A DNA stretch of 15,426 nucleotides from a virus (taxonomy: Duplodnaviria; Heunggongvirae; Uroviricota; Caudoviricetes). A model generated the notes under the pieces. The model was given only the letters and a program-made list of their open reading frames with translations, ran no database searches and was not told where the DNA came from. This document shows, in pieces, positions 1-15,426 of this stretch. Positions within the stretch are counted from its first letter, which is position 1; each line of letters starts with the position of its first letter. The stretch lies in IMG/VR virus record IMGVR_UViG_2651869755_000004; one strand, 5' to 3'. A program made the translations under genes and the position numbers.

Positions 1-176
1 AACTCATAACGGTATTTCACGTTAATCCCGTTCAGATTATCGCTGCCGGGAGCGTTCGTACGGGCATGAAGATACCCCGCGCTCAGTGTGGACTGATGTT
101 CAGACGCCCATGCAGGCGCACCGGATACGGACAGACAGATGGCTGCGGACAAAATGGCTGCACATAATTTACGCAT
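1..176 (-). CDS. lom: Lom outer-membrane protein (Ail/Lom family), N-terminal part only; the 3' end runs off the window
   Basis: Reverse-complement translation from ATG at 176..174 gives MRKLCAAILSAAICLSVSGAPAWASEHQSTLSAGYLHARTNAPGSDNLNGINVKYRYEF, a signal-peptide-like N-terminus matching lambda Lom from memory. GAGAGG Shine-Dalgarno sits about 7 nt upstream. Position 67 bp downstream of J matches lambda. Confidence 0.85.
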   Translation of the reverse strand, partial: MRKLCAAILSAAICLSVSGAPAWASEHQSTLSAGYLHARTNAPGSDNLNGINVKYRYE

Positions 177-200
177 AATTACCTCTCGCTTTTCTGCAAT

Positions 201-224
201 AAAAAAGGCGCCATTTCTGGCGCC
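201..224 (-). terminator. Intrinsic terminator-like hairpin between J and lom
   Basis: On the minus strand GGCGCC-AGAAAT-GGCGCC (6-bp GC stem, 6-nt loop) is followed directly by TTTTTTATT, beginning a few nt after the J stop. Confidence 0.55.
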
Positions 225-243
225 CGTATATGGGTTATAAAAT

Positions 244-3200
244 TCAGCTGATACTGATGCCTGCGGTGGCTTTCTTCATCACCACAACCAGCAAATCGCT
301 GATACTTGCTGTGGGATACCAGTTATTCACCAGCCATGCTGACACCGAAAACTCCAGCGTCATGTGGCCGCGACCAGCTGGCATATCAATAACACCACTG
401 TAAATCAGCGTATTATCCAGCGCGGTACGGTTATAAATTTCAGCACCGTTTTTCCGTACTATCAGGCGGCATGACGAATAAATATCGTTATTCTCCCGCT
501 CATGTTTAGCGCCGCTGAATGCCACCGCCGGAATAACAATTTGCCTGTCAAAAGGCTGATCGTCATAAATCCTGACGGTAATGGTCCCTGATGGCCACCG
601 CTCCGGTGCCCGGGAGTCCCGCGGAAAAGCCTTACCCACTGTTTTGACTATATCGCCTTCAATCTGGTTGGCTGACAGTTTCCCCTTAATCTGACAGTTC
701 TCATTAATTGTGACATTGTTGAGCGTCCCGGCGTTCGCATTCACACTGCCACTGATATCTGCATTTTTAGCGGTCAGTTTTCCGTCCGGTGTCAGGGAAA
801 ATGCCGGAGGATTACCGCCGCTGGTAATGGTGGGAGCCGTCAGGCGTTTCAGGAACACGTCGTTCATGAATATCTGATCGCCCTGACCAACAAACATCGG
901 CTTTGTGTTGCCATTCGCAGGATTAATCATCGCAATCCTGTCTGCCGCCAGCAGCACCTGACTCTGCATTCCTGCTGGCGTATTCTCAATACCGGCACCG
1001 ATACCCGCAATATAAAGGCGTCCGTCCTGCATCTGCTGCAGCTTCACAGCCCACATGCTGTTCAGATTATTATTTGTATCAACCTGAACCTTCTGTATCT
1101 GCTGGATTGCCGCACTCTGATTTTCCAGTTTTTTATTGACGGTCTGCGTGATTTCATTGCTGACATCCGTAATGGACGTCCTGATTTCAGCCAGGTCAGG
1201 CGCAAGCTGACCGTTATCAATCTGCGTCCACAACTCCTGAGCCAGATGGGTTTTCCCTATCTCTCCTTTGAAAAAATTCAGATAGCCGGATGCATCATCA
1301 CTCGGCTGGCCAACAGCCTCCACAAATGCCGATTTGCCAACGGTGTTCACACTGCGGATGTAAAAATAATAATCATGGCCCGGTTTGATATTGATACTGG
1401 CAGCTATCCAGTACAGCGCCGAGCCAAGATAGCGGGCTGCGGTTTCAACCTGCCTGATATCCGCAATCCGCTTTTCCGAGAACCAGAACTCAAACTGTAC
1501 CGTCGGGTCATACACCGCAAGACGCGGGACCGCCGTTATCTGAAAATAGCCCGGCGTCAGCTCAATCCGCGACGGTGCTGCCGGTGCGGCAATCCGGAAT
1601 GTGGTGGTGGCAGGTTCACCCTGCTGGCCATAGCTGTTTATCGCCCGCACCGTCAGGGTGTATTCCCCGAGCGGCAGGCCGCTGAAACGGTGCTCCGTGT
1701 CTGCGGTGATGGCGGTGGTCACCAGTCTGGCATCCGTTCCCTTACCACTGGTCAGGCGCAGACTGAAGCGCACACCCTTCACCACCCGCGGCGTGTCCCA
1801 TTTCGCCTGCGCCAGATACTGACCGTCAGCTGCGCTCACCTCCACCGTCAGGTGCTGCACTGCCGGTGGGATGACGCTGTTCAGGGAACCTGACTGCGGC
1901 TCAAAGCGGGCACCGTTATCCACGATGGCTTCTTTTTCCGGTACGTGCTGCACCGCCGTGATGGCAAAGGTGCCGTCCGTGTTTTCCCGGACGGAGACAC
2001 AGCGGAACAGGCGACGGCGCAGTGACGGCAGGGAGAGTCCCCACACCCCGTATGTCTCCACACCATCAGGCAGGGTACTGACCTGTATCCGGTCCGGCGC
2101 GGGGTGTGCGGTGATGTCCACACTCACCGGCTTACCGCTGCCGTTAATCAGGTTCACCGTGGCGGCACCGGTCTCCGGAAGTGTCACTTCACGGTCCAGC
2201 GTCAGGGTGCGGGTGGCAGCATCAATGGACAGGACACGTCCGCCGGTCAGGGTCCCGGCATAGTCGTTATCACAGATTTCAATGATGTCACCGGGTGTGT
2301 GCCGCAGCCCCTGAGACCCGAGCGTGAAATCCACCGTCTGCGTTTCCAGCAGTTCGGTCTTTATCACCCACAGTCCGGCACGGTGGGCCTGACCGCGGCT
2401 GGTACAGCCGAACGCGTCCATCTTCAGCAGGTTGCGTCCGTAGCGCAGTATGGCTTCCGGGTCTTCCACCAGTTCCGTGGAGGTCTGCCAGCCGTTCTGC
2501 GGGTCGGTGTAATTCACCTCCACCGCCGTGTGCCGGTCCTTCAGGGCACTGAAGCTGTAGCGGAACCCCACGCCGTTATCATCCACCACCACATCGCTGT
2601 TGGTGTACGGCCACACCACATCCGACGGACGGTCCTGAACGAACGTCAGCGTCTGGCCGTTCCATACCGGCATACAGCGCATCGCCGAGCAGAAATCACT
2701 GAGAACGTCCCACGCCTTACGCTGTTGTGCCAGGTACGCATTAAAGGTCATCCGCGGCTCGGTCCCCCCGAAACCATCCGGGACCGTCTGGTCGCAGTAC
2801 TGCCCGATGGCATACAGCGCCCACTTGTCCACATCCGCCGCCCCCAGACGTTTTCCCATGCCGTAGCGCGGGTGAGTCAGCATGTCCCACAGACACCAGG
2901 CCGGGTTGTTGCTGTATGCCGGTTTCAGGCTGCCGTCCCAGATACCACTGTACGTGCGTTTTTCCGGGTCATAGTTTGACGGCACCTGGATGATGCGACC
3001 GCGGATATGGTAGTTCACCGTCATCTGCTGGCCGCCGAACTGCTCCGCATCCACCTGCAGCCCCACAATGGCCGTGTTCGGGTAGCACTGTTTCACATCG
3101 ATGATTTCGGTGTATGACGACCACAGCGTCTTATTCTGCAGCTGGTCCGTGGTGCTGTCCGCCGTCTCCCTGACCATCCGGATGTTAAAGGGCCGGGGAG

Positions 3201-3717
3201 GCAGATTATCCAGAATCACCGAGGCCAGGAACTGCGAGGTGGTCTTGCCGTTAATGGTGACGTCCTTTTCTGTCACCCAGTTACCGTTACGCTGTAACTG
3301 AATCAGCAGGCGGACGGATGCCGGGTTACGGTCACCCTTTGAGGTGGTCTCCACCAGTGACTGCACCCCGAAGGTAACCCGCAGGCGGTCAATGTTCGCG
3401 GACGTAATGGTGCGCGTCACCGGTTTTGCCTTCGTCACTTCCACGCCCAGTCCGGTTTCAGCTCCGGAGGACTCAAAGCCTTCCGGTGGTGTCTGCTCCT
3501 GCTCCCCGGCACGCCAGACCGCGGTCACACCGTGTATCACGGGATTACCGTCCGTGTCCGTCAGCGGGGTTTTGTTCACCAGGATACTCTGCAGTCCCTT
3601 CACCGGGCCTTCTATCGGTCCCTCACCAATCGCATCAATCACACTCATCATCTGCGTGGATTTGAGATTATCCTTCGCCTCACGAGGCGTGTGTGCCTTA
3701 CCGCCACCTTTTCCCAT
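244..3717 (-). CDS. J: Tail tip / host specificity protein J (central tail fibre), 1157 aa
   Basis: ORF begins [22 protein letters not shown] and ends ...ATAGISIS, recognisably lambda gpJ along its whole length (lambda J is 1132 aa). GGGGAAGG ribosome-binding site lies about 5 nt upstream of the ATG at 3717. Confidence 0.97.
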
Positions 3718-3820
3718 ACAGCCTTCCCCTGAATAAATTAACCGCCACTTGCCATTCCGTACAGAAGTCGGATATCCTTCGCCCGAAAAGCATGAAACAC
3801 ATTTCTGCCATGCTAAAGAG

Positions 3821-3856
3821 AAACCCCGGTATCAGCAGATACCGGGGTTTTCTTTC
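3821..3856 (+). terminator. Intrinsic terminator-like hairpin in the I-J insert, possibly bidirectional
   Basis: Plus strand AAACCCCGGTATC-AGCA-GATACCGGGGTTT forms a 10-13 bp GC-rich stem with a 4-nt loop, followed by TTTTCTTTC. The minus-strand reading is followed by a weaker U-rich tract (TTTCTCTTT). Confidence 0.45.
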
Positions 3857-3922
3857 ATGCCCACCGATAATCCTGTTGGTTAAAACCGGTAATGGCATAA
3901 AAATTCTGAATATCTTCACATT

Positions 3923-3950
3923 TTCACAAACTGACTGTGGCGCGTATAAT
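3923..3950 (+). promoter_or_regulatory. Candidate sigma70 promoter on the strand opposite the tail genes
   Basis: -35 TTCACA (3923..3928), 16-bp spacer, perfect -10 TATAAT (3945..3950). An A/T-rich stretch lies upstream (3893..3913). Predicted transcription start near 3957. Confidence 0.4.
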
Positions 3951-3956
3951 TTCTCT

Positions 3957-4053
3957 GCGTTAATTTTTTTGTCGTGATATAAGAATAATTCCTTACACTT
4001 AATCTTCGTAACTCTCCCGCAGTTCCTGTCCGCGATCACTGCGGGATTTTTTT
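3957..4053 (+). ncRNA. Candidate small RNA of about 95 nt defined by the promoter and the downstream terminator; function unknown
   Basis: The interval between the predicted start and the terminator U-tract has no ORF with a ribosome-binding site on either strand. It is AT-rich and ends in a GC stem plus U7, the usual architecture of enterobacterial Hfq-type sRNAs. Prediction only. Confidence 0.3.
4016..4053 (+). terminator. Rho-independent terminator, plus-strand specific
   Basis: CCCGCAGT (4016..4023) pairs with ACTGCGGG (4038..4045), then A plus seven T (4046..4053). The minus-strand reading has no T-tract, so it is directional. It ends 8 bp before the I stop codon. Confidence 0.6.
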
Positions 4054-4060
4054 ATTCTTT

Positions 4061-4741
4061 TTACCCCTGCCGCCCGATAACCACGACCTTTCCGCCCCCG
4101 CCTTCATCACGGGTGCTGATGTCCTGGGATATACGGCGGGAGCCAACCAGCATTTCCCCGTAAGGCACCGGCATCGGGTTCCCCTGGGCAATCATGTTAT
4201 CCAGTGAGGAAAAGTACGTGTTCTGTCTGCCGTTATCCGTTGCGCGGTAATCCGGTGTTTTTGCCTTCGGGGCCAGCATCTGGGCCACACCGCCCAGAAT
4301 CATGCTGGCTCCAAGTGAAAACAGCATCGTGGTGGCAGAAAAACCACCGGCTGCCAGGGCTGAACCCCATAACGCCATTGATGCCCCGGCAGTGAAGAAA
4401 GAGCCCACGATGGCTGCCGCCCCCAGCACAATCTGCAGTCCACCCTTTCCGGCCCCGGCCAGTCGCGGCACAATGTGGATGACCGTTCCCTCACCCAGCT
4501 GTTCGTGAAGACGGGCGTACACCGCCTCCGGTGCCGTGTCATAACCGGCAATACGTATCTGGTACCAGCCTTCGTTCATCTGACGGCGAAAGCCCGGCAT
4601 CTGCATCGACAGGGCGCGAATGGCTTCCGCTGCCGTGTTCACATACAGGCTGAGGCGGCGGCCAAATCGTTGTAAATCCCCGTGAAGGCAGATGCGTGCC
4701 AGTGGCGGTGACGCCAGACTGAATGCGTTCGTCGTTGCCAT
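4061..4741 (-). CDS. I: Tail tip assembly protein I
   Basis: 226-aa ORF MATTNAFSLASPPLARICLHGDLQRFGRR...KVVVIGRQG matches lambda gpI from memory, including the Gly/Ala-rich hydrophobic central segment. Correct position between K and J. Confidence 0.95.
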   Translation of the reverse strand: MATTNAFSLASPPLARICLHGDLQRFGRRLSLYVNTAAEAIRALSMQMPGFRRQMNEGWYQIRIAGYDTAPEAVYARLHEQLGEGTVIHIVPRLAGAGKGGLQIVLGAAAIVGSFFTAGASMALWGSALAAGGFSATTMLFSLGASMILGGVAQMLAPKAKTPDYRATDNGRQNTYFSSLDNMIAQGNPMPVPYGEMLVGSRRISQDISTRDEGGGGKVVVIGRQG

Positions 4742-5382
4742 TTTTCGGAATACCTCTCCCGTTTACTCAGTTGTTCAGGCAGATGGTGAAGCAGCTCACC
4801 GTTGCCGCAGTAAATGGCGGCATGGTTCGGTACCGAAGCACCAAAGCAGCACAGCAGAATATCGCCCGCCTGTGCAGAGGACAGGGGCACCCGGTAAAAG
4901 CCGGTGACCGCCATATTGTCCAGGTAAAGGTTCTGACCGTTGCGCCACCAGTCATCCTCGCGATGAAAATCCGGCATCTCAGTCCCCGCCAGATGATAAG
5001 CATCCCGGAACAGCGTGTAACAGTCCGTCACCCCGTGCTCAAAGCGCCGTCCTGTCAGATGTGGCACACAGCGGAATTTGTGAATGTCACCCCGGCAGAC
5101 CAGCCACCAGGGCAGTGCGCTTTTTATCTGCAGCCGCCGGTCAGCCTCGCTCAGCCAGGGCAGCCCACCGGGATGACTGTGGACCAGTGCCACAATCTCC
5201 CCCTGCATCTCTGCCCGCAGCCAGTCTTCCGGTGCGATACGAAAATACGCCTCCGGCTCTGCAGAAATATTCACACAAGGGATATACCACTCCCCCTCCG
5301 GCGTGCTTATCACGAAGCCGCACGACTCCGCAGGCGCACACCGCCGGGCATGCGCCAGAATCGCTGATTCAGTCTGTGTCAT
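4639..5382 (-). CDS. K: Tail tip assembly protein K (N-terminal JAMM/MPN domain plus C-terminal NlpC/P60 domain)
   Basis: Start taken at the internal ATG 5382..5380 (MTQTESAILAHARRCAPAESCGF...), 10 nt after the L stop. JAMM motif HSHPGGLPWLSEAD (HxHx7Sx2D) is intact. NlpC/P60 Cys (DCYTLF) and His (VPNHAAIY, LLHH) are present. The reading frame overlaps the I start by 103 bp. Confidence 0.9.
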   Translation of the reverse strand: MTQTESAILAHARRCAPAESCGFVISTPEGEWYIPCVNISAEPEAYFRIAPEDWLRAEMQGEIVALVHSHPGGLPWLSEADRRLQIKSALPWWLVCRGDIHKFRCVPHLTGRRFEHGVTDCYTLFRDAYHLAGTEMPDFHREDDWWRNGQNLYLDNMAVTGFYRVPLSSAQAGDILLCCFGASVPNHAAIYCGNGELLHHLPEQLSKRERYSEKWQRRTHSVWRHRHWHASAFTGIYNDLAAASACM

Positions 5383-5392
5383 AAACCGGGAT

Positions 5393-6091
5393 TTACTGCG
5401 AAAGTTTATTAATGGAAAGGAAACCGCCAAAATTGCCGACATTCCTGCGCAGTTCACACCCGCGCATGCACTTGCTGCATCTGTCCTTACGGATATCCGT
5501 GGTGGGGTTGTCGAACTCATCCGCCACCGCAGGACCGTTATACCCGCATTCATCTCCCCGGTAATCCCACATACAGGTGTTCGCCAGCATGATGCGACCG
5601 GGAAACAGCGCCCCGTCCGTCTCGGTCGGTGTAGCCAGCACAAACGAGGCCGTCATGGCTGTCAGCTGCGACATCTGCTCCACCACCCAGCGGTCACTCA
5701 GCTCCTGCTCCGGGTCCGCCTCCGGATTGCCCGCAACGAAATTCACCGCATCCAGAAAACGGGCATACACCCGGCGGCGGACCACCGTGGCCCCCACCAG
5801 ACTCTGCAGGTCTTCCGCCATCCCGGTGACCAGACCAAACAGATTGGACACCGTCAGCGATGGTCTGGCACTGCTGCCCTTCCCGTTCATCTCAAAGCCA
5901 CTCCCCTCAATCGGGTACGCCTGATATTCACGCCCCTGCCAGGTCACCGGCTCCCCTTTTTCATTCAGCTCATTGCAGAAAAAATACCGCTCACCGCCCT
6001 GCACCGTCAGGTCGATTTCCCAGAGTACCACCCGCGGTGACTGCTCTGACTTAACCGACTCGTTCAGACTTTCTTCGCGAATATCCTGCAT
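5393..6091 (-). CDS. L: Tail tip protein L
   Basis: 232-aa ORF MQDIREESLNESVKSEQSPRVVLWEIDL...NVGNFGGFLSINKLSQ matches lambda gpL, including the C-terminal cysteine cluster (CMWDY, CGYNG, CSKC, MRGC). Confidence 0.95.
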   Translation of the reverse strand: MQDIREESLNESVKSEQSPRVVLWEIDLTVQGGERYFFCNELNEKGEPVTWQGREYQAYPIEGSGFEMNGKGSSARPSLTVSNLFGLVTGMAEDLQSLVGATVVRRRVYARFLDAVNFVAGNPEADPEQELSDRWVVEQMSQLTAMTASFVLATPTETDGALFPGRIMLANTCMWDYRGDECGYNGPAVADEFDNPTTDIRKDRCSKCMRGCELRRNVGNFGGFLSINKLSQ

Positions 6092-6420
6092 CAGTTCACC
6101 ACCTGCTTAAACTCCGCGCTGAACTCAACGCGCAACATCCCGACCCGCGCAGACCACCCGGCACAGGTCACCTTTATCTGCCGGTATGCATAGGGTGGCT
6201 TCCACAAAAATGCCTTCCAGCCACCGTGCTCTGCCAGGAACGCTTCCAGATGCCGGGCCTCCTCCCGGGTCACGGAAAGCGTCACCCTGTATGTTTTCAG
6301 GTCAGCATTCAGCCCTGCCGCCATACGCTGTGAGTACCCGTAACCAAAACGCACTTCACGCACCGATGGCTGCGAGTTCACCTCCATATCCGGCTTCACT
6401 TTCCAGCGAAAGGTTTTCAT
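6091..6420 (-). CDS. M: Tail tip protein M
   Basis: 109-aa ORF MKTFRWKVKPDMEVNSQPSVREVRFGYGYSQRMAAGLNADLKTYRVTLSV... matches lambda gpM. Overlapping start/stop coupling with H and L. Confidence 0.95.
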   Translation of the reverse strand: MKTFRWKVKPDMEVNSQPSVREVRFGYGYSQRMAAGLNADLKTYRVTLSVTREEARHLEAFLAEHGGWKAFLWKPPYAYRQIKVTCAGWSARVGMLRVEFSAEFKQVVN

Positions 6421-8990
6421 CCACCGCTCCCTGATAACATACCGCCATCACGCAACTGCAGCCGGAGTTCATCCTGTGCCCCCTTGCGGGCCATCTCATA
6501 CACCGCTTTCATCAGCTGCGGCCCTGCCCGCCCGTTGGGGCCGTCGTTCTGAATCACCACGTGATTGTTCTGATTAAAATTAATGCCTTCCGCCCGCCGC
6601 ATCTGCGCCGGACTTCCGGCACCGCCGACATAACCACCTTCCGCATAGCCCCGCATCAGGCGGTACAGATTGCCGACACCAATCCGGCTGGTCGCCTCCT
6701 TCGTGAAGACAAACTCCCCGCGATGAACAATCCCCGCAGGTTCATATTTACCCCCCGTCCCCGTAAATCCCCCGGTCGCGAAATGGAAGTTCGCCGCCGC
6801 AGCCTGAATGGCTGTACCGCCTGACGCGGATGCGCCGCCACCAACAGCCCCGCCAATGGCGCTGCCGATACTCCCGACTATCCCCACCATCGCCTGCTTC
6901 AGAAAAATCTCTGTCAGCATGGACAGCACAGAACGGGTGAAACCACGCCAGTTCTGTTCGCTGCCGGTCAGCATCGCTGCCATATTCTGTGCAATACCGT
7001 CAAAGGTCTGCGTGGCCGCGTTTTTAACCTGCGAAAAACTGTCCGTCGCACTTTCCGCCCACTCGCCCCAGCCGGACTTCATCCCGGCCATCCAGCTTCC
7101 ACGAAGCTGCTCCTCCGCAGACCAGGTGTTCTTCAGTGCAGATGTGGCCTTCGCCAGCGCAGCCGGATTATCACCGTACACCTCACGAAGGCGCTGCTCT
7201 TCCGACTCCCGCTGCGCCTGACGGTCGGTGAGTCCGCGGGCTTTTGCGCTGATTGCCGCCTGCTTCGCGCTCTGCTGCTGTTCAAACCGCGCCGCCTGCT
7301 GTGCCAGCTCATTCAGCCGTTTCTGGTGTTCAATCTTGTCGCCCAGCTCAGCCAGCTGGCGTTTGTACTCCAGCGTTTCTTTCTCATGGGCCAGCAGGGA
7401 TTTTTCCTGCTCAGATAACTGCCGTTTCGTGGCGGCCTCTTTCAGGACCACATACTGATTTTCCGCTTCCCATAAATCCCGGCGCTGCTGGCTGATTTTC
7501 TCATTCACACCGCTGTGTTTTTCCAGCGTCCTGAGCTCGGTTTCAAGCGCCAGCATGGCTGCATGCGCCCGGTCTTCCTGGCGCTCACCGGCAGACACCT
7601 TCACACCTGACGGCTTTTTCAGCGTCGATTCATAATCCTTTTTTGCCGACGCCATCAGCGTGTTGTAATCCGCCTGCAGGATTTTTCCGTCTTTCAGGGC
7701 CTTATTCAGCTCTTTCTGACGGGCGGTATATTTATCCAGCGGCGTCTGCAGGCGCTCATACGCCTTCTGCGCCTCTCCGGTATACTTCAGCTGTGACGCC
7801 TCACGCTCAGCCCGGTCCCTTGCCGCCAGTTCACCGGCTTTTTCCATATCCGACTGCAGCGTGGCCGCTGCCAGACCCAGACGGGCATTTTCCCGGTCAT
7901 CCCATGCCCCCTGAAGGTTCGCACGAAAAGAGGAGGTCTTTCCCCGGCGCTGGCTCCGGCTCTGGTACCACTGCCATTTTTTATCCGCCTCATCAAATGC
8001 CTTCTGCGCACTGGCGAGCATATCCGCTGAGGATTCAGGACGACCGATATCCAGAATGGCATCCCACATCGATTTGAATGCCTTCCCTGTTTTATCCGCC
8101 CAGGTCTCCAGTGTTCCCATGTTTTCTTTCAGGCGACGGGTCTGCTCATCAAAGCCTTTCGTGGCGATATCGTTCGCCGCCTGCAATGCCCCGGCCTCGT
8201 CTCCGGAACGCTGCAGCTGTGCAACATACGCAATCTGCTCTGCCGTCACGTTACGGAACTGGCGCGCCATCGCCATCAGTCCCGACGTCGGGTCAGTGGT
8301 CAGCTTCCCGAAGGCTTCAGCGACTTTATCCACCTCCACACCGGATGCAGACGCAAAACGCGCGACACTCTGGTTGATGGCATCAAACTGTTCACCACCA
8401 CGCACACCGGCATTCATCAGGGCTGCCAGTGACTCTCTCGCCTGGTTAAACGTCAGCCCTGCTGCCTGCCCGGCTCTTGAGAGAGTCAGCATACGATCGG
8501 CAGTCAGTCCGGACTGATTACCGGAAAGAACCAGGGTTTTATTAAACGCTGAAAGCGTGGAATCTCCCTGGTACCAGGCGTACACCAGCGCACCTGTCGC
8601 CACCGCCAGCGAGGTGACCCCGACCATCGGCAGGGTGATCGCACCGGCGAGCCCCCTGAACATGGGGATCATCCCGCCGAAGGAGTCCTTCACCTGACCG
8701 CCCTGTTGCAGCAGGATCAGCCAGGGATTCTGACCACCGGCAAGCTGCGTGGCGATATCCGTAAACTGTGCGGGCAGGGTTCGCATGGCCGCTTTATACT
8801 GCCCGACGGAAATCCCGGCTTTTTGTGCAGCCAGCGCCTGGCGGCTCAGGCCCTGTTCAACAGCACTGGCGGTTTTTCTGGCGTCGGTATCCAGACCTGA
8901 AAAATGACGCCTTACCCGGCTCATCTGCTCATCGAAACGGACAGCATCCAGACTCAGGTCAATAACAAGATCACCAACCGGCTGGGACAT
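6417..8990 (-). CDS. H: Tail tape measure protein H
   Basis: 857-aa ORF MSQPVGDLVIDLSLDAVRFDEQMSRVRRHFSG... with a coiled-coil-rich centre and Gly-rich C-terminal region, collinear with lambda gpH (853 aa). Confidence 0.95.
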   Translation of the reverse strand: MSQPVGDLVIDLSLDAVRFDEQMSRVRRHFSGLDTDARKTASAVEQGLSRQALAAQKAGISVGQYKAAMRTLPAQFTDIATQLAGGQNPWLILLQQGGQVKDSFGGMIPMFRGLAGAITLPMVGVTSLAVATGALVYAWYQGDSTLSAFNKTLVLSGNQSGLTADRMLTLSRAGQAAGLTFNQARESLAALMNAGVRGGEQFDAINQSVARFASASGVEVDKVAEAFGKLTTDPTSGLMAMARQFRNVTAEQIAYVAQLQRSGDEAGALQAANDIATKGFDEQTRRLKENMGTLETWADKTGKAFKSMWDAILDIGRPESSADMLASAQKAFDEADKKWQWYQSRSQRRGKTSSFRANLQGAWDDRENARLGLAAATLQSDMEKAGELAARDRAEREASQLKYTGEAQKAYERLQTPLDKYTARQKELNKALKDGKILQADYNTLMASAKKDYESTLKKPSGVKVSAGERQEDRAHAAMLALETELRTLEKHSGVNEKISQQRRDLWEAENQYVVLKEAATKRQLSEQEKSLLAHEKETLEYKRQLAELGDKIEHQKRLNELAQQAARFEQQQSAKQAAISAKARGLTDRQAQRESEEQRLREVYGDNPAALAKATSALKNTWSAEEQLRGSWMAGMKSGWGEWAESATDSFSQVKNAATQTFDGIAQNMAAMLTGSEQNWRGFTRSVLSMLTEIFLKQAMVGIVGSIGSAIGGAVGGGASASGGTAIQAAAANFHFATGGFTGTGGKYEPAGIVHRGEFVFTKEATSRIGVGNLYRLMRGYAEGGYVGGAGSPAQMRRAEGINFNQNNHVVIQNDGPNGRAGPQLMKAVYEMARKGAQDELRLQLRDGGMLSGSGG

Positions 8991-9842
8991 ATCTCACACC
9001 TCCCGGAATCCCCGCTGAAGCCATCATTAATGCGGCATCATCCACCATGACATCCGCCACATCCGCAGACGATAAAATATCGCGCCCTCCGTCCCCACCG
9101 AACCGGACGCCTCCGGCAAGTCCTGCCGCTTTCTGCATCAGCATTTTGTCCTCATCCGGCCTCTCCACCTGCTCTTCCTCATGCCGGGGGACAAGCAGAC
9201 TGAAATCAGAGGGATGCATATCCGGATCGCAAAAAAACAGGCTGAGTACAGCGTACGTCAGCCCGGAAAAATGCATATCCAGCTGGGTATCCTGAAAATA
9301 ATGCGTGCGGTAAAAACGGTGCCAGTCGGCATATTCGGTGGATGTCATCCCGGCAAGCATGGCGCGCCAGTCGGGTCTCCCCATCTCACGCGCCAGTCTG
9401 AGGGCAAAGTTCAGCTCGCCGTCAAAGACTTTCCCGCAGAAAAATCATCATCAGTCAGCGTGTTATTTTTCGCCACTTCAGTAATATCAGTATCCGGACG
9501 AACAGCTTCGATCATCCCGGACAGGCACAACACCACGTCTTCCGCCCGGGCAATGGCATCGGCAGGCCAGGTGGTGAGCACTTCCTGCTCTATCTTCATC
9601 ACGGCCTCATTCATTGACGGTGACTGCGTTTTCTGTGGATGGTTATGCCACAGGGACATCGCCACCAGAAACGCGCCGGTTCTGACGAGATCTTCCACGC
9701 TTACCTGCAGGTTGCCGCAGGATTCTGCCTGTTCTGCACGCCGTTTCAGGAGGGCAAGATGCTCGATACGCTGCAGCGCAGACAATTCGGAAAGCGTGAC
9801 AGACACACCGTTATATTCAAATTGTTCTGTTTTCAGAAACAT
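8971..9842 (-). CDS. GT: Tail assembly chaperone GT, made by programmed -1 ribosomal frameshift from G into the T frame
   Basis: The G frame carries the slippery heptamer G GGA AAG 21 nt before its stop. The -1 frame stays open from that site to 8971 and encodes ...MGRPDWRAMLAGMTSTEYADWHRFYRTHYF..., lambda gpT-like. Frames checked by coordinate arithmetic. Confidence 0.85.
9411..9842 (-). CDS. G: Tail assembly chaperone G (zero-frame product)
   Basis: 143-aa ORF MFLKTEQFEYNGVSVTLSELSALQRIEHLALLKRRAEQAE... matches lambda gpG and lies between V and H. Confidence 0.95.
   Translation of the reverse strand: MFLKTEQFEYNGVSVTLSELSALQRIEHLALLKRRAEQAESCGNLQVSVEDLVRTGAFLVAMSLWHNHPQKTQSPSMNEAVMKIEQEVLTTWPADAIARAEDVVLCLSGMIEAVRPDTDITEVAKNNTLTDDDFSAGKSLTAS
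9429..9435 (-). other. Programmed -1 frameshift slippery heptamer GGGAAAG (G/GT)
   Basis: Minus-strand GCG GGA AAG in the G frame (plus-strand CTTTCCC at 9429..9435). Same heptamer and position near the 3' end of G as in lambda. Confidence 0.85.
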
Positions 9843-9855
9843 GTATTACCTCCGT

Positions 9856-10608
9856 TTACCCTGCAGCGCCCGCTTCAGTAACGGTGACTTCAGCCACTGC
9901 GGCGAACTGACCATTTCCGCTCACCACAGGGATCTGCACCTTACCTGTCGCCACGCCGTTTACCGTAATTGTCATATCTTTCACACTAATGGTGGCTTTC
10001 GACGGATCGGCGGAAACCGCTCTGAACGTCTTGTCGGTTGCACTTTCCGGCTCAAAAGAAACCGTCAGGGTGGTTGTTTTCCCTTTTGCCACCGTACCGG
10101 ATGTCGGCGTCACCTTAATCGCACTGACCGGCGTAATTTTGCTGCGTTCTTCCGCTACAGAAGGTTTACCCACGTTAGTGACTTTCACCGTGCGGGTGAT
10201 CACTTCTTTCGCCGTCACGGCCTTACCGATACTGCTGACCCAGCCACGAAACACATCCACCGTGCCATTCGGAAAACGGATTTTATAGGCCCGGACATCG
10301 CCGCTTTCAAACCAGCCTATAAGCCCTTTCTGGCCTTCCTCTCCCGGTTTCCAGGCCAGCGTAAAACTGGTATCACCTGCAGATTTCTGCCCCTGCCCGG
10401 TCGCGGTCCAGTCCGCGTCTTCATCATCCAGGTAGTTATCATCGTAGGATTCTGCCGTCATCTCGCCCGGCGTCAGATCCTTCACCTTAGCCAGTCGCTG
10501 CCAGTCATCGTCTGACAACGGGTTTGCATAAGCATCACCCTTGCCGTTGTAAACCCACAGAGTGGTACCGGCACCTTTTACCGGCTCAAGGGGATTTGGT
10601 GTTGCCAT
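9856..10608 (-). CDS. V: Major tail tube protein V with C-terminal Ig-like domain
   Basis: 250-aa [60 protein letters not shown]... matches lambda gpV, including the C-terminal Ig-like segment (...[30 protein letters not shown]). Confidence 0.96.
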
Positions 10609-10615
10609 ATCGTCC

Positions 10616-11011
10616 TCACATCTCGTATGTAATGGAATAAGTCAGATCTGCAGAACTCCATAACGCCATATCGTCATCACGACGATACTCATAGCCCTGC
10701 GTAACCATCGTGGTAATCAGTCCTGCCAGTGCCGGGATCGCGGTCATCGCCGGGTAAATCCGGCTTTCCATCCACTGATCGAGCTCTGAATCCGGTACCT
10801 GTGCCGGTAAAAACACCTCAATATGCAGTGTGGCCCGCCAGGTATCTGCATCCAGCTCTTCACCGGTATACTCTGCATCCGTCAGATAAACCGCGATCGC
10901 AGGAAAATCCTCTTCGTCAAAAACAACGGGGCGACCATCAAACAGCGTCGCCCCGTGTTCATGCTGCTCGAGTGCATCCAGCACTGCGGCACGAATGTCA
11001 GTGTGTTTCAT
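10616..11011 (-). CDS. U: Tail terminator protein U
   Basis: 131-aa [46 protein letters not shown]... matches lambda gpU. Confidence 0.95.
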
Positions 11012-11541
11012 CGTTTTATCGCAATCCTCAGTTGTTGTTTCAGCGCGTATGCCAGTTCTTTAGGCAGGCGTTCACGCCGGATACGGTCAACATTCTCATC
11101 AAATGCCTGTTTCAGTGGGGCCGCCATCGGGATTTTCACCACATCAATGGGGTAACGGTTTTTCCCGGCCACACGCTGCATGACATGCCAGCGACCATTT
11201 TTTAATCGCTGAATAAATGCCCGCTGATACCGATGCTGACCGGCTTTAAGTATGCTGTTCGGGCGACGCCCCAGCATCCTGATCCCCAGCTTAATCACAG
11301 GGAGATCACCGCGGTTAACGATAATTCTGGCATTCGGATTTCTGACCGTCGCCCGTTTCAGTCTGGACCGTTCCTTAACCAGTTTCCGGCGAACCTTTGT
11401 CTCCCGGGCAACCTGTGATGAAGACTGATTAATCGCCGTTGTGGCCACGCGGTTAATGGCCATTGCTGAAGCCGCCGGAATGGCGTTTTTACGAACCCGG
11501 CTCAGATTGTCAATCGCCTGATCAAGCCCTTTTATCGCCAT
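11008..11541 (-). CDS. Z: Tail completion protein Z
   Basis: 177-aa ORF MAIKGLDQAIDNLSRVRKNAIPAASAMAINRVATTAINQSSSQVARETKVRRKLVKE...[41 protein letters not shown] matches lambda gpZ. 4-bp overlap with the U start. Confidence 0.93.
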   Translation of the reverse strand: MAIKGLDQAIDNLSRVRKNAIPAASAMAINRVATTAINQSSSQVARETKVRRKLVKERSRLKRATVRNPNARIIVNRGDLPVIKLGIRMLGRRPNSILKAGQHRYQRAFIQRLKNGRWHVMQRVAGKNRYPIDVVKIPMAAPLKQAFDENVDRIRRERLPKELAYALKQQLRIAIKR

Positions 11542-11556
11542 AATTTCACCCTGCGT

Positions 11557-11910
11557 TTATCGTCGCCGGTTAACTGCGGGTGGTTGACCACGGTTGAGCC
11601 AGAGATAACAGCTGCCCCCGTCATCCGGAGAAACACGATCCACCCAGAATATCTCACCATTAATGGTCAGCGTGTCACCACGCCGCACGGCACGAACCGT
11701 ATCCGTCCGCACAAATAATGACGGGCTGCTTCCTTCAATACGGACCCCGCCACCGGCAAACCCCAGCGACTCCGGATCGTCAAAAACCCCCTGAACTTCG
11801 CTGCCACACTGTGCCCCCGAGGTGAACTGCGCACAGAGCCCCATCACTTCAACGATCGTACTGTCTACCCCGGCGAGGGCAGCATCAAAGGCATTCTGAA
11901 AATCACGCAT
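11557..11910 (-). CDS. FII: Head-tail joining protein FII
   Basis: 117-aa ORF ending ...FWVDRVSPDDGGSCYLWLNRGQPPAVNRRR, a near match to the lambda gpFII C-terminus. Confidence 0.95.
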   Translation of the reverse strand: MRDFQNAFDAALAGVDSTIVEVMGLCAQFTSGAQCGSEVQGVFDDPESLGFAGGGVRIEGSSPSLFVRTDTVRAVRRGDTLTINGEIFWVDRVSPDDGGSCYLWLNRGQPPAVNRRR

Positions 11911-12286
11911 ATTCAGCCGTTCCGTGCTGTATCATGGCCGTTGCCAGTGATGATGGCACCAGAACACGCATACCCCGTAACGCCAGCTCAACGGGACGAC
12001 CTGTCTCCGGGCAATACCCCATTACTTGCAGGCACTTCCGTACCCGGACGGCTTTAACATCATCCGGAGCATCCGTGTTGTTCAACTGCTCACCATCGTC
12101 TGTGTGATTTTGATCAGCCCCGCTCTCATCAGAGTGCATAATGCCCTCCGGGGAAACAGCAAGCTCCTCTTCCCACTCAGACACACGTTGAGCAATATCC
12201 GCAGCACTCCCCGACATATCCGCCTCGCGCCCCAGCAGGCCAGCCAGTTGACGAAGACGATTCAGATTTTCTTCTTTTGTTGCCAT
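11903..12286 (-). CDS. FI: DNA-packaging / head completion protein FI
   Basis: Start placed at the internal ATG 12286..12284 (MATKEENLNRLRQLAGLLGRE...), which has an AGGAGG Shine-Dalgarno about 6 nt upstream. The longer ORF start at 12334 has no ribosome-binding site and would overlap the E stop. Acidic middle region typical of gpFI. Confidence 0.85.
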   Translation of the reverse strand: MATKEENLNRLRQLAGLLGREADMSGSAADIAQRVSEWEEELAVSPEGIMHSDESGADQNHTDDGEQLNNTDAPDDVKAVRVRKCLQVMGYCPETGRPVELALRGMRVLVPSSLATAMIQHGTAEYA

Positions 12287-12300
12287 CTCAGCCTCCTGTG

Positions 12301-12329
12301 AAAAAAGACACGGGGGCATTTCGCCCCCG
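12301..12329 (-). terminator. Hairpin with U-tract between E and FI (attenuator or mRNA-stabilising element)
   Basis: On the minus strand, 7-bp stem CGGGGGC/GCCCCCG with a 5-nt loop, followed by GTCTTTTTTCACAGGAGG, i.e. immediately after the E stop and ahead of the FI ribosome-binding site. Confidence 0.35.
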
Positions 12330-12337
12330 CTCACGGA

Positions 12338-13366
12338 TTATTTCACCTGTACCACCACAAACTCATCCGGATCCGGCAGCACCATCAGCGGAGCGGACTG
12401 CGTCATGGTGAATTCACAGGACGGATCGCCCACGGTCAGCCAGTGTTTCGGGTAACGGGAAGAAGCCACCACTCCTTCAGACAACGCCTGTGCATCCTTA
12501 ATGGCACCATAGCAACGAATCCCCTCTGCCGCCGTATTCCCCAGCACCAGCATGCCCTCCGGCAGATAACGTTTTTCGGTACCGTCCTCTGCCACATAAG
12601 ACGTTTTCGCCACCACAATGGCCAGATCGCCGTAATACCCCTTGAAGGACACCACTGCGCCCAGATCTTTCACTGCCGTTTCGAGTTGTGAATTTGAGCC
12701 GCGACGGGTATCCAGTTTTTCGCGGAACAGCTTAAAGCCATTCAGCAGACGCCAGACCGTACCGTCCATAATGGCGATATTCACAAGGCCGCTGGCCTGA
12801 TCGCAGTAGAGGTCAATATCATGCGTCGGATCAAACGTATCACGGTCCTGCTCAGACCATTTTTTACCGTCAGCCTGCTCAATGTTATTTCCTTCAGAGC
12901 GCCCGAAATCCACCTCGACAGTATCAAACTGATCCCCTTCCATGGTGTATTTGCCATACAGCACGGCATTCACCGCCTGCATTTCTTCCACCTGGACAAT
13001 GGCGTGCTCTTCCTGTTTGAGGTTATCGGTAATGATACGCAGACGACGGTAGGCCGGGTCGTTCAGCTGAGCCGGATCTTCACCAGGAAGGCGCTCAACC
13101 GCCTGCTGGTAATTAAATTCGTGTTTGGGCTTGACGTAGCCCGGACGTAACACGCGGGTTTCACCACCGCGATGGCGAAGCACTTTTCCTTCAACGATCG
13201 GGGAGACATAGGCCGCCACCGGCGTTTTTCCGGTAATTTTGTCCAGCATCACCTCTTCGGTGTGGAAATTCACCGTACGGCGGAAAAACAGCTCCAGAAA
13301 CAGCGCACGGAATTTCACTTTTTGTTCGGTATAACCGAGTAACTGGCGGGTCGTAAACAATCCCAT
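12338..13366 (-). CDS. E: Major capsid protein E
   Basis: 342-aa ORF with KFRALFLELFF..., SPIVEG, PGYVKPKHE, EKLDTRRGSNSQLETAVKDLG and MTQSAPLMVLPDPDEFV blocks matching lambda gpE. AAGGAA ribosome-binding site upstream. Confidence 0.97.
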   Translation of the reverse strand: MGLFTTRQLLGYTEQKVKFRALFLELFFRRTVNFHTEEVMLDKITGKTPVAAYVSPIVEGKVLRHRGGETRVLRPGYVKPKHEFNYQQAVERLPGEDPAQLNDPAYRRLRIITDNLKQEEHAIVQVEEMQAVNAVLYGKYTMEGDQFDTVEVDFGRSEGNNIEQADGKKWSEQDRDTFDPTHDIDLYCDQASGLVNIAIMDGTVWRLLNGFKLFREKLDTRRGSNSQLETAVKDLGAVVSFKGYYGDLAIVVAKTSYVAEDGTEKRYLPEGMLVLGNTAAEGIRCYGAIKDAQALSEGVVASSRYPKHWLTVGDPSCEFTMTQSAPLMVLPDPDEFVVVQVK

Positions 13367-13423
13367 AAATCAGTTCCTTTCATTCAGAAATCAGTCAGGC
13401 CGCCATGGTGGCCTGATAACGTG

Positions 13424-13770
13424 TTACGGCAGAGCCGCGTGACTCAGGGCTGTGCCGGCAAAGGCATTTGCCTTTTTGTGTTCATCCACACTGTCAGGCC
13501 AGCGGATTGCCTCCGTCGCAAAGGTCCCCGACTTGTAATAGGTCAGCACCGTCTCTGTGCCTTCAAGCGGCAGTACCAGTATGCCAACCGCACTACCGGC
13601 TTTCTGTCCATCCCAGACCACCAGTTTCCCGGTGGCTTCATCCAGCATCAGGGCGTCAGAGCCGGTGTTGCAGAAGAAATCCCGCTGCTGCCTGTGGCGG
13701 TATGAGCCGGATCATTACCGGCAAAAATACGTACTTCCGCACGCTGTTCAGTGATGGTTTTCGTCACCAT
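13424..13770 (-). pseudogene. D: Head decoration protein D, interrupted by an apparent 1-bp deletion
   Basis: ATG at 13770 (GAGG 9 nt upstream) encodes MVTKTITEQRAEVRIFAGNDPAHTATGSSGISSATPALTP, then TGA at 13650..13648. The gpD homology continues in the -1 frame as (A)LMLDEATGKLVVWDG...FAGTALSHAALP to 13424. Sequence reads ACG CCC TGA TGC TGG where ACG CCN CTG ATG CTG would keep the frame. Confidence 0.6.
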
Positions 13771-13806
13771 TTTGTTAAAACCTCATATTGATGGTCAGCA
13801 CTGACT

Positions 13807-14409
13807 TCATGGCATGGCCATGAGCATTTTCACGTCCGCATCACCGTCTGCTGACGTCTGTGACACGCCACCCCGCACCGCTGCCGGTGAATGATTCGCC
13901 ATGAAATGTTCAAACAAGGCGGTTGTGGATGCAGAGACCGGTTCGGCCTTACCTGATCCCGCAGCCAGCACAGCCCGGGCGTTCTCCACGGTCATTCCCG
14001 GGCAGGCCGCCAGTTTTTCAGCCTGCGCTTCTGCCCCTTTTGCCTCATCCAGGGCCATGATCTGATCACGAAGTGAGGGCCCGGCATTCGCCTGCGGTGA
14101 GGCAGCCAGGATCGGGCGGGCTTTTTCCACCGTCATCTCCGGCATCGCCGCCAGCGTTGCCGCCAGTTGTTCACGACCTTTCGCTTCTTCACACGCCATA
14201 ATGCGATCGGCTTCACTCTGCGCGGATGCCACCGGCTGCTGTGGTGCCGCCGCGGCCAGAATCGCCCGGGCCTGTTCAATGCTCATGCCCTGTTGTCCTG
14301 CCAGCATCGTGGCAAGCTGTTCACGTCCTTTCGCTTCCTGACACGTCAGGATCCCCATCACTCGCTGGTTCTCCTGCGCGGCAGCTTCCGTTGCAGTTAA
14401 TTGCGGCAT
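13807..14409 (-). CDS. Nu3: Scaffolding protein Nu3-like, nested in frame within the 3' part of C
   Basis: Internal ATG at 14409..14407 (MPQLTATEAAAQENQRVMGIL...) is preceded by a strong AGGAGG Shine-Dalgarno 6 nt upstream. Same nested C/Nu3 arrangement as lambda. Carries three tandem ~45-aa repeats. Confidence 0.6.
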   Translation of the reverse strand: MPQLTATEAAAQENQRVMGILTCQEAKGREQLATMLAGQQGMSIEQARAILAAAAPQQPVASAQSEADRIMACEEAKGREQLAATLAAMPEMTVEKARPILAASPQANAGPSLRDQIMALDEAKGAEAQAEKLAACPGMTVENARAVLAAGSGKAEPVSASTTALFEHFMANHSPAAVRGGVSQTSADGDADVKMLMAMP

Positions 14410-15210
14410 AGTGCCTCCTGTATCATGAGTGTTCAGCGCCGCAGCCATCACGCTGATGGCATCCGACGCATTGATTAATTCATCCGCCAGTCCGGCCTTA
14501 ATAGCGGACTGACCTTCAAAAACGGCAGCCTCTGTCCCCGTGACAGCTTCCACAGACAGCCCCGTATACATCGCCACTTTTTCGGCAAACATCCGGTGCG
14601 CCGCATCAACCCGCTGCTGCATGTCCTGACGCACCTCTGCCGGTAAGGCTTCAAACTGATTGCCATCCACCTTGTGCGCCCCGGCATAAATCAGCGTGAT
14701 ATCCACCCCGGCCTGCGCCAGATGACCGGCATAGCTGACATGGCTCATCATCACGCCAATGGAGCCGATACGGGATGTCTGGGTAACCAGCCGTCGGGAG
14801 CAGGCCGACGCCAGCAGCATGGCTGCAGAACAGGCCGTGTCATTGCACAGTGCCCAGACCGGCTTCTGCTGACGGAGGCGGTAAATCATGTCAGCGCAGT
14901 CAAACGCGCCGGCGGCCTGCCCGCCCGGACTGTCAATGTCCAGCAGTACGCCCCGCACCTGGCTATCTGCCATTGCCTGCTGAAGACAGGCGACAATGCC
15001 GTCATAGCCTGTCATTCCGGAAAATGGCCGCATACCGCCCAGCCGGTGCACCAGCGTGCCGGTCACCGGCAGTACAGCAATACCGTTCACCACCCGGTAA
15101 ACACGGGCCGGTCGTTTACCTCCGGCCATGTACTCGTCCGTTTCAGCCAGCATTCCGGGAGCATCAAGCTGTACCTGCGTAAGCGTAAACTGACCGCCGT
15201 ATGTAGCCAT
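13807..15210 (-). CDS. C: Head maturation protease C (S49/ClpP-like) with in-frame scaffold part; 5' end appears truncated
   Basis: 467-aa ORF with protease core ...YRVVNGIAVLPVTGTL...GVLLDIDSPGG...VWALCNDTACSAAMLLASA...SIGVMMSH..., as in lambda gpC. Only about 35 residues precede the conserved core versus about 85 in lambda. No ribosome-binding site at the apparent start; the frame is closed by TAA at 15229..15231. Confidence 0.85.
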   Translation of the reverse strand: MATYGGQFTLTQVQLDAPGMLAETDEYMAGGKRPARVYRVVNGIAVLPVTGTLVHRLGGMRPFSGMTGYDGIVACLQQAMADSQVRGVLLDIDSPGGQAAGAFDCADMIYRLRQQKPVWALCNDTACSAAMLLASACSRRLVTQTSRIGSIGVMMSHVSYAGHLAQAGVDITLIYAGAHKVDGNQFEALPAEVRQDMQQRVDAAHRMFAEKVAMYTGLSVEAVTGTEAAVFEGQSAIKAGLADELINASDAISVMAAALNTHDTGGTMPQLTATEAAAQENQRVMGILTCQEAKGREQLATMLAGQQGMSIEQARAILAAAAPQQPVASAQSEADRIMACEEAKGREQLAATLAAMPEMTVEKARPILAASPQANAGPSLRDQIMALDEAKGAEAQAEKLAACPGMTVENARAVLAAGSGKAEPVSASTTALFEHFMANHSPAAVRGGVSQTSADGDADVKMLMAMP

Positions 15211-15223
15211 CAGACGAGAATTG

Positions 15224-15426
15224 GTAACTTAGACGCCCATCTGATATAGACGGACATCTAAGTATGGAATTACAGGACTGGCGAAAAGAACCTCGTAAAA
15301 ACTATTCGAATGAATTCAAACTTCGTATGGTGGAACTGGCATCACAACCTGGAGCTTGTGTTGCACAGATTGCACGTGAAAATGGCGTCAATGATAATGT
15401 TATTTTCAAATGGCTCAGGCTCTGGC
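15224..15426 (+). mobile_element. Left end of an IS element (family unresolved, IS3- or IS66-like) abutting the truncated C gene
   Basis: The C reading frame is closed within 20 bp upstream of its apparent start, and a transposase ORF begins 54 bp away on the other strand. The candidate terminal sequence starts GTAACTTAGACGCCC at 15224. The exact boundary is not proven and the other end lies outside the window. Confidence 0.45.
15264..15426 (+). CDS. Insertion-sequence transposase OrfA-type helix-turn-helix protein, 5' part only (runs off the window)
   Basis: Plus-strand ATG at 15264 encodes MELQDWRKEPRKNYSNEFKLRMVELASQPGACVAQIARENGVNDNVIFKWLRLW. The EFK...V.L......VAQIARE.GVN.N.I.KW pattern is typical of the HTH_Tnp_1 fold of IS3-type OrfA proteins. 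Opposite orientation to all phage genes. Confidence 0.6.
   Translation, partial: MELQDWRKEPRKNYSNEFKLRMVELASQPGACVAQIARENGVNDNVIFKWLRLW

What the first reader, a model, noticed from the sequence alone, without database searches (positions are those of the whole stretch)
13640..13660. Head decoration gene D is frameshifted by a single missing base
gpD homology runs in one frame for 40 codons from the ATG at 13770, hits TGA at 13650..13648, and continues without a gap in the -1 frame for another 74 codons. The combined length of about 115 aa matches intact gpD (110 aa). The break falls at ACG CCC|TGA TGC TGG, exactly where T-P-L-M-L is expected, consistent with loss of one base in a C/G run. 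Either D is a pseudogene and the prophage cannot make stable heads, or this is a homopolymer sequencing error.
Basis: seen in the sequence. Interest (0 to 1): 0.5.

Follow-up and report, generated by a model that had tools for sequence, protein, structure and literature searches.

The report
Broken head-decoration gene in decaying prophage
A small capsid-stabilising gene of a lambda-like prophage in a clinical E. coli strain has really lost one base and is a pseudogene, but an insertion sequence had already disabled the prophage's head genes, so this is ordinary prophage decay.

Summary
On the minus strand an ORF starts at ATG 13770 and stops at TGA 13650..13648 after 40 codons. The other 74 codons continue in another frame to 13424. 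The window differs from intact alleles in this 401-nt gene region by one missing C in a CCCC run (window 13651..13653).

Adding the base back gives a 115-aa protein that is 110/115 identical to the crystallised phage 21 SHP, the lambda gpD homologue.

The window is a whole contig of E. coli JA37 (LJYC01000053.1), sequenced on Illumina MiSeq at 85x. This is the only indel in 15,178 aligned bases.

The upstream gene C (S49 head protease/scaffold) is cut at 15179 by an IS66-family element, ISEc23. That exact junction occurs in seven assemblies:
- Three have intact D.
- Three have the same deletion: JA37, a second distinct isolate, and a 39x SPAdes metagenome contig.
- One contig ends before D.

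The deletion is therefore very probably a real, inherited allele and not a sequencing error. It most likely arose after the IS had already inactivated head assembly. No complete RefSeq E. coli genome carries it (0 of 1,209 copies), and there is no recoding signal.

Verdict: an ordinary pseudogene of low interest.

The parts
13424..13770 (-). shp/D-type head decoration gene, now a pseudogene. It is 347 nt here and 348 nt in intact alleles.
   Evidence: The repaired 115-aa product scores 88.2 bits on Pfam HDPD and is 110/115 identical to phage 21 SHP, PDB 1TD3.
13648..13770 (-). N-terminal fragment ORF of 40 codons plus a premature TGA at 13650..13648.
   Evidence: It has no Pfam hit on its own.
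13651..13653 (-). Site of the deletion. The coding-strand run is CCC here and CCCC in every intact allele examined.
   Evidence: Alignment A1. It is the only indel against L005, L006 and L004. It is the only difference from L031 over 2,058 nt.
13424..13648 (-). C-terminal fragment ORF of 74 codons. Its ATG overlaps the premature stop (UGAUG). It covers only positions 39-114 of the 116-position HDPD profile.
13781..13784 (-). GAGG Shine-Dalgarno-like motif 10 nt upstream of the ATG at 13770. It is unchanged from intact alleles.
   Evidence: The phage 21 record annotates the ribosome binding site at the equivalent place.
13807..15178 (-). 3' part of gene C (S49 family head protease/scaffold), separated from its first ~45 codons by an IS. 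The listed 467-aa ORF (13807..15210) takes its first 11 codons from IS sequence.
   Evidence: The intact homologue is 501 aa. The alignment to relatives ends at 15178.
15171..15178 (+). One copy of the 8-bp target-site duplication (GTACCTGC, which is GCAGGTAC on the coding strand).
   Evidence: Both copies flank the complete IS in L028. The junction string is present in the window.
15179..15426 (+). End of an IS66-family element (ISEc23): a GTAAGCG terminus, then the first 54 codons of tnpA from ATG 15264. The contig ends inside the IS.
   Evidence: It is 100% identical to the ISEc23 copy annotated in E. coli N10. The full tnpA-tnpB-tnpC element sits at the same junction in L027 and L028.
12338..13366 (-). 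Major capsid protein gene E, 342 aa and intact. It is the binding partner of the decoration protein.
   Evidence: It is the same length as in annotated relatives, with Pfam Phage_cap_E on record.

Best explanation
The gene is the shp/D-type head decoration gene of a phage 21/lambda-like prophage in uropathogenic E. coli JA37. It has truly lost one C from a CCCC run, most simply by replication slippage. Translation now ends after codon 40, and the last two thirds of the beta-tulip domain lie in another frame.

The allele is heritable. It is shared by at least two other independently sequenced samples that carry the same prophage haplotype, marked by an ISEc23 insertion in the adjacent gene C.

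Other carriers of that same IS junction still have an intact D. The most parsimonious order is therefore that the IS first knocked out the essential head protease/scaffold gene, and D, no longer under selection, was then lost by a neutral frameshift in one sub-lineage.

Shown: the deletion, its recurrence on the same haplotype, the IS insertion with its target duplication, and the sequencing platform. Inferred: the slippage mechanism, the order of events, and loss of function of the split protein.
For: 1. There is exactly one base of difference from intact alleles in 401 nt, and it is the sole indel in 15,178 aligned bases.
2. The source assembly is Illumina MiSeq 2x250 at 84.9x, built with the A5 pipeline (PMC4722275). 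The window has 228 homopolymer runs of 4 or more and 74 of 5 or more, and none of the others differs in length from relatives.
3. The 467-aa C::IS marker ORF finds seven assemblies with the identical junction. String and BLAST checks give this split:
- D deleted: the window; L030 (100% identical over 2,972 nt); L032 (SPAdes node at 39x coverage, 1 substitution).
- D intact: L027; L028; L031 (0 substitutions over 2,058 nt).
- L033 ends before D.
4. L030 is a different strain from JA37. It has an IS3-family element at window-equivalent 12317, where JA37 reads through.
5. The IS is a simple insertion with an 8-bp duplication, GCAGGTAC.
6. All 15 other genes on the contig have the same lengths as in intact relatives.
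7. The 74-aa fragment lacks profile positions 1-38 of HDPD. The N-terminal arm of beta-tulip decoration proteins is the main capsid-binding element (review PMC7602432).
Against: - No reads were available, so the base call in JA37 itself is not verified directly.
- The same deletion also turns up in noisy long-read assemblies whose neighbouring genes are full of frameshifts (L017, L019, L023, L024). This run can therefore also be miscalled by some platforms.
- L009 carries the deletion with an uninterrupted gene C. The order 'IS first' therefore needs either a second independent deletion, a recombination event, or a chimeric metagenome contig.
- I could not establish the sequencing platforms of L030 and L032.
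Confidence: 0.87

Rival explanations
1. This is a sequencing or assembly artefact. JA37 really has CCCC and an intact 115-aa gene, and the contig lost a base in the homopolymer.
For: - The break lies in a homopolymer.
- None of 1,209 copies in 5,426 complete RefSeq genomes has the deleted allele.
- Several error-rich long-read assemblies show the same miscall among dozens of others.
Against: - Illumina MiSeq at 84.9x is not prone to consensus indels in 4-base runs.
- There are no other indels in 15,178 bases, despite 74 runs of 5 or more.
- The identical deletion occurs on the identical IS-marked haplotype in a distinct isolate (L030) and in a 39x SPAdes metagenome contig (L032). Three other carriers of that haplotype read CCCC.
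Confidence: 0.06
2. The gene is still functional. Either a low level of -1 ribosomal frameshifting at CCC-UGA restores full-length SHP, or termination-reinitiation at the UGAUG overlap makes a 74-aa fragment that works alone or together with the 40-aa peptide.
For: - The stop and the next ATG overlap (UGAUG).
- A hairpin downstream folds better than shuffled sequences (z = -2.7).
Against: - There is no X XXY YYZ slippery heptamer in ORF1. A -1 slip of tRNA-Pro from CCC to GCC mispairs.
- The hairpin starts about 12 nt after the stop and is equally present in intact alleles, so it did not evolve for recoding.
- The arrangement is not conserved: 0 of 1,209 copies.
- The 74-aa fragment lacks a third of the domain, including the N-terminal arm.
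- The prophage cannot use a decoration protein anyway, because gene C is disrupted.
Confidence: 0.03
3. The deletion is real, but the order is reversed. The D frameshift came first and was the original inactivating lesion. The IS landed in C later, and the D-intact carriers of the IS regained CCCC by gene conversion from another lambdoid prophage.
For: - L009 has the deletion with an empty IS target site. It shares the 13416 substitution with L032.
- E. coli genomes often hold several copies of this gene, up to 5 places per genome, which could act as donors.
Against: - Three of the six informative IS-junction carriers are D-intact. One of them, L031, has no other difference from the window in 2,058 nt, so a conversion tract would have to be invisible.
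- L009 is a metagenome contig whose upstream part is only 97.8% identical to L028. It is therefore a different mosaic or a chimera, not the ancestor.
Confidence: 0.12

Closest known systems
Phage 21 SHP (shp gene; PDB 1TD0/1TD3/1TD4)
   Same: - The length is 115 aa once the missing base is restored, with 110/115 identical residues and E = 2.7e-69.
- Nucleotide identity is 94.9%.
- It holds the same position between the S49 protease/scaffold gene and the major capsid gene.
   Different: Here the reading frame is broken after codon 40 by loss of one C. It sits in a chromosomal prophage and not in a viable phage.
Lambda gpD head decoration protein (Pfam PF02924 HDPD; PDB 1C5E, 7VII)
   Same: It belongs to the same family and beta-tulip fold, with E about 1e-29. 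According to the literature it has the same role: a trimer that stabilises the expanded capsid for full-length genome packaging (PMC7602432).
   Different: It is only a distant homologue. The literature gives about 49% identity between gpD and SHP, and gpD is 110 aa, not 115.
Homopolymer-indel pseudogenes in defective lambdoid prophages of E. coli
   Same: - A single-base loss in a short mononucleotide run.
- A neighbouring IS insertion in an essential morphogenesis gene.
- A further IS3-family insertion in a sister strain, L030.
- Another lineage has a different 1-nt deletion in a TTTTT run of the same gene, L010 and L016.
   Different: Nothing in kind. Only this particular allele, and its apparent restriction to one IS-marked sub-lineage, is specific.
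Programmed -1 frameshift of the lambda tail chaperone G/GT
   Same: It is also a frame change inside a phage structural gene, and it is present in this very window (GGGAAAG at 9435..9429).
   Different: G/GT has a canonical slippery heptamer in the correct phase and is conserved in all relatives. The D break has no slippery site and is absent from 1,209 other copies.

Membership tests
gpD/SHP head decoration proteins (Pfam PF02924 HDPD) | Sequence match to the family profile above the curated cut-off | tested here: met
   The repaired 115-aa product scores 88.2 bits against a cut-off of 29.1. The 74-aa fragment alone scores 64.2 bits.
gpD/SHP head decoration proteins (Pfam PF02924 HDPD) | Close similarity to a member with a solved structure | tested here: met
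   110/115 identical to SHP 1TD3 (E = 2.7e-69). Lambda gpD 1C5E and 7VII match at E about 1e-29.
gpD/SHP head decoration proteins (Pfam PF02924 HDPD) | Gene position between the head protease/scaffold gene (C/Nu3) and the major capsid gene (E) | tested here: met
   The order on the minus strand is C (13807..15178), D (13424..13770), E (12338..13366). The same order is annotated in relatives and in phage 21.
gpD/SHP head decoration proteins (Pfam PF02924 HDPD) | One uninterrupted ORF encoding the whole domain, that is, a functional member | tested here: not met
   A premature TGA follows codon 40, and the rest is in another frame. It is a pseudogene of the family, not a working member.
gpD/SHP head decoration proteins (Pfam PF02924 HDPD) | Trimer formation and binding at capsid three-fold sites | not testable with these tools
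   This needs protein expression and capsid-binding assays.
Genuine (not artefactual) frameshift pseudogene | The same lesion reproduced in independent sequencing of related genomes | tested here: met
   L030 (a distinct isolate with an extra IS3 element) and L032 (a 39x metagenome node) share both the IS junction and the deletion. L009 also has the deletion.
Genuine (not artefactual) frameshift pseudogene | Read-level support in the source genome | not testable with these tools
   Only the platform and depth are known: MiSeq at 84.9x.
Programmed ribosomal frameshift / recoding site | Slippery sequence in the correct phase at the shift site | tested here: not met
   ORF1 has no in-phase X XXY YYZ heptamer. 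The site is ACG CCC UGA.
Programmed ribosomal frameshift / recoding site | Conservation of the two-frame arrangement among homologues | tested here: not met
   0 of 1,209 places in 5,426 complete genomes match the deleted allele exactly. All best hits have the extra base.
Programmed ribosomal frameshift / recoding site | Downstream stimulatory RNA structure at 5-9 nt spacing | tested here: inconclusive
   A hairpin exists (MFE -33.8 kcal/mol, z = -2.7). It begins about 12 nt after the stop and is identical in intact alleles.
IS66-family insertion sequence (ISEc23) | GTAAGCG terminal repeat, tnpA-tnpB-tnpC gene set and an 8-bp target-site duplication | tested here: met
   - The terminus lies at 15179, and tnpA starts at 15264.
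- The window end is 100% identical to the annotated ISEc23 in N10.
- The full three-gene element and the GCAGGTAC duplication are seen at the same junction in L027 and L028.
- The window itself holds only 248 bp of the IS.

The most novel reading that the evidence does not exclude
The split allele is not inert. It could be kept in a UPEC sub-lineage because the 74-aa C-terminal fragment, made by reinitiation at the UGAUG overlap, or rare -1 frameshift product, retains some activity. One example would be interfering with capsid stabilisation of superinfecting or co-resident lambdoid phages that use the same decoration protein. In that case recurrence of the same deletion on different prophage backgrounds (L009, L007) would reflect selection and not slippage or error.
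Probability: 0.02. Interest if true: 0.35.

Novelty: already known. Interest (0 to 1): 0.08.

Why it matters
It matters little beyond annotation. The two short ORFs (40 and 74 aa) should be annotated as one shp/D pseudogene. The prophage should be scored as defective because of the IS in gene C, not because of D.

The case does show a useful method. A unique IS-junction ORF can be used to find sister assemblies and so separate real frameshifts from sequencing errors when reads are unavailable. It also gives a small dated example of stepwise prophage decay: an IS knock-out, then a neutral homopolymer frameshift, then a further IS in a sister strain.

Tried and rejected
1. Counting carriers of the 40-aa and 74-aa products. 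The protein look-ups report many contigs. Most database entries are 'partial' proteins at contig ends or scaffold gaps (L011-L015), so those counts are not counts of frameshifts.
2. Using megabase contigs that carry the deletion as support. L017, L019, L023 and L024 have dozens of other indels and fragmented neighbouring genes. I rejected them as evidence either way. Selecting by the 40-aa product enriches for noisy assemblies.
3. Recoding. There is no slippery heptamer and the arrangement is not conserved. The downstream hairpin is shared with intact alleles and poorly spaced.
4. Tracing L030, L031, L032, L027 and L028 to publications for platform and strain identity. Nothing was found.
5. 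Looking for the deleted allele in phage records and complete RefSeq genomes. There was none.

Full report
**Observation.**
- An ORF begins at ATG 13770, preceded by GAGG at 13784..13781. It runs 40 codons to TGA at 13650..13648.
- A 74-codon ORF (13648..13424) in another frame carries the rest of the homology. Its ATG overlaps the stop (UGAUG).
- Frame translations show no other way through the region.

**What is missing.**
A 401-nt query over the gene finds it in 1,865 of 5,426 complete E. coli genomes. The best matches are 402 nt long at 99.8% identity, which means a single gap.
- The alignment with E. coli VR50, BEN2908 and the phage 21 shp gene shows ACG CCC CTG ATG CTG in all three and ACG CCC TGA TGC TG in the window.
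- The window is otherwise identical to VR50 and BEN2908. The lesion is therefore loss of one C from a CCCC run, and the remaining run is at window 13651..13653.
- Restoring the base gives a 115-aa protein identical to the annotated WP_000256823.1 'head decoration protein'.
- That protein scores 88.2 bits on Pfam HDPD (cut-off 29.1) and is 110/115 identical to the crystallised phage 21 SHP (PDB 1TD3, E = 2.7e-69).
- Lambda gpD structures match at E about 1e-29. The proper reference is therefore shp (115 aa) and not lambda D (110 aa).

**Context.**
The whole window aligns to relatives from 1 to 15178 at up to 99.7% identity.
- Base-by-base comparison with the two closest complete genomes shows 48-49 substitutions, clustered in the tail genes, and exactly one indel, the D deletion.
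- All other genes on the contig have the same lengths as their intact annotated counterparts.
- From 15179 the window is 100% identical to the end of an IS66-family element, ISEc23, as annotated in strain N10. It has the GTAAGCG terminus and tnpA starting at 15264.
- The IS splits gene C, the S49 family head protease/scaffold gene, which is 501 aa when intact. The listed 467-aa ORF borrows its first codons from the IS.
- In the complete genomes L027 and L028 the same junction shows the full tnpA-tnpB-tnpC element flanked by an 8-bp duplication, GCAGGTAC.
- The head module was therefore already inactivated independently of D.

**Source and platform.**
The protein look-up identifies the window as the entire contig LJYC01000053.1 of GCA_001306715.1. 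The announcement paper (PMC4722275) identifies it as E. coli JA37, a urosepsis blood isolate. It was sequenced on Illumina MiSeq 2x250 at 84.9x and assembled with A5.
- Consensus homopolymer deletions in 4-base runs are not a typical failure of this platform at that depth (my own knowledge of the platform).
- The window has 228 runs of 4 or more bases and 74 of 5 or more, and none of the others differs in length from relatives.

**Independent recurrence.**
The 467-aa C::IS ORF is a unique marker of this insertion, so I used it to find sister assemblies. Seven assemblies share the junction. BLAST and exact-string checks give this split:
- D intact:
  - L027 (UGFX01, 5.0 Mb contig)
  - L028 (OZ038772.1)
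  - L031 (NTOH01; 0 substitutions over 2,058 nt, so the extra C is the only difference)
- D deleted:
  - the window
  - L030 (JBBGMG01; 100% identical over 2,972 nt)
  - L032 (metagenome ERZ505755, SPAdes node at 39x; one substitution)
- L033 ends before D.

L030 is not JA37 sequenced again. Just past gene E, at window-equivalent 12317, it runs into an IS3-family element where the JA37 contig reads through. The deletion is therefore an inherited polymorphism within an IS-marked prophage lineage. Since the IS is common to D-intact and D-deleted members, the simplest history is IS insertion first and D frameshift second.

**Complications.**
- L009, a MEGAHIT metagenome contig, has the same deletion with an uninterrupted gene C. 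It shares the substitution at 13416 with L032.
- L009's upstream genes are only 97.8% identical to L028's. It is therefore a different mosaic, a recombinant, or a chimeric assembly.
- L009 leaves some room for recurrent slippage or for the reverse order of events.
- L007 has the deletion on a 95%-identical background, but with other broken genes.
- Many megabase contigs that carry the deletion (L017, L019, L023, L024) have dozens of other indels. They are error-rich long-read assemblies and carry no weight.
- Most database '40-aa' and '74-aa' proteins are contig-end partials.

**Rarity and recoding.**
A 71-nt query centred on the break can only reach 99% identity with an exact match. It finds 1,209 places in 918 complete genomes, and all of them have the extra base. 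The arrangement is therefore not conserved.
- ORF1 has no in-phase slippery heptamer.
- A -1 slip of tRNA-Pro from CCC to GCC would mispair (inference).
- The downstream hairpin (z = -2.7) is equally present in intact alleles and lies about 12 nt beyond the stop.
- By contrast, the window's true programmed frameshift site, GGGAAAG in the tail chaperone gene G, is present at 9435..9429 in the right phase.

**Functional consequence.**
The 74-aa fragment covers only profile positions 39-114 of 116. In beta-tulip decoration proteins the N-terminal arm is the main capsid-binding element. gpD is needed to stabilise lambda capsids for the last 10-20% of the genome (PMC7602432).
- Loss of function is therefore very likely, though it is inferred and not shown.
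- It has no further effect on a prophage whose gene C is already split.

**Verdict.**
This is a real single-base deletion that creates an shp/D pseudogene, embedded in ordinary stepwise prophage decay. Interest is low.

Noticed in passing
window 15171..15426: An IS66-family element (ISEc23) is inserted in the head protease/scaffold gene C, with the 8-bp target duplication GCAGGTAC. The contig ends inside the IS. The same junction occurs in seven assemblies, which makes it a clonal marker.
   Followed up: yes
window 9429..9435 (minus strand): The canonical G GGA AAG slippery heptamer lies near the end of tail assembly chaperone gene G (9842..9411), in the phase expected for the conserved lambda G/GT programmed -1 frameshift.
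   Followed up: partly
L010 5628..5974 and L016 1670..2016: A different prophage lineage, about 95% identical, carries another single-base deletion in the same gene. It lies in a TTTTT run near codon 24 and gives 37 + 74 aa ORFs. This is a second example of a homopolymer frameshift in shp.
   Followed up: partly
L030 2973..3079 (window-equivalent 12317): The sister isolate that shares the IS junction and the D deletion has an additional IS3-family element just downstream of gene E. JA37 lacks it, so this is a further step of decay in that strain.
   Followed up: partly
window 13900..14400 (minus strand, C-terminal third of gene C): There are three tandem repeats of about 37 aa (…EAKGREQLA…ARxILAA…) in the scaffold-like part of the C protein. 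They correspond to the 'Tri box' repeats annotated as 'function unknown' in the phage 21 record M81255.
   Followed up: no
window 2566..3643 and 5837..6002: Substitutions relative to the closest genomes are tightly clustered in gene J and around genes L/K, while 6343..15178 is almost invariant. This pattern suggests short recombination tracts in the tail genes.
   Followed up: no
window 12290..12330 (minus strand): A G+C-rich inverted repeat (GGGGGCGAAATGCCCCC) followed by a T run lies between gene E and FI and looks like an intrinsic terminator. The IS3 element of L030 sits within it.
   Followed up: no
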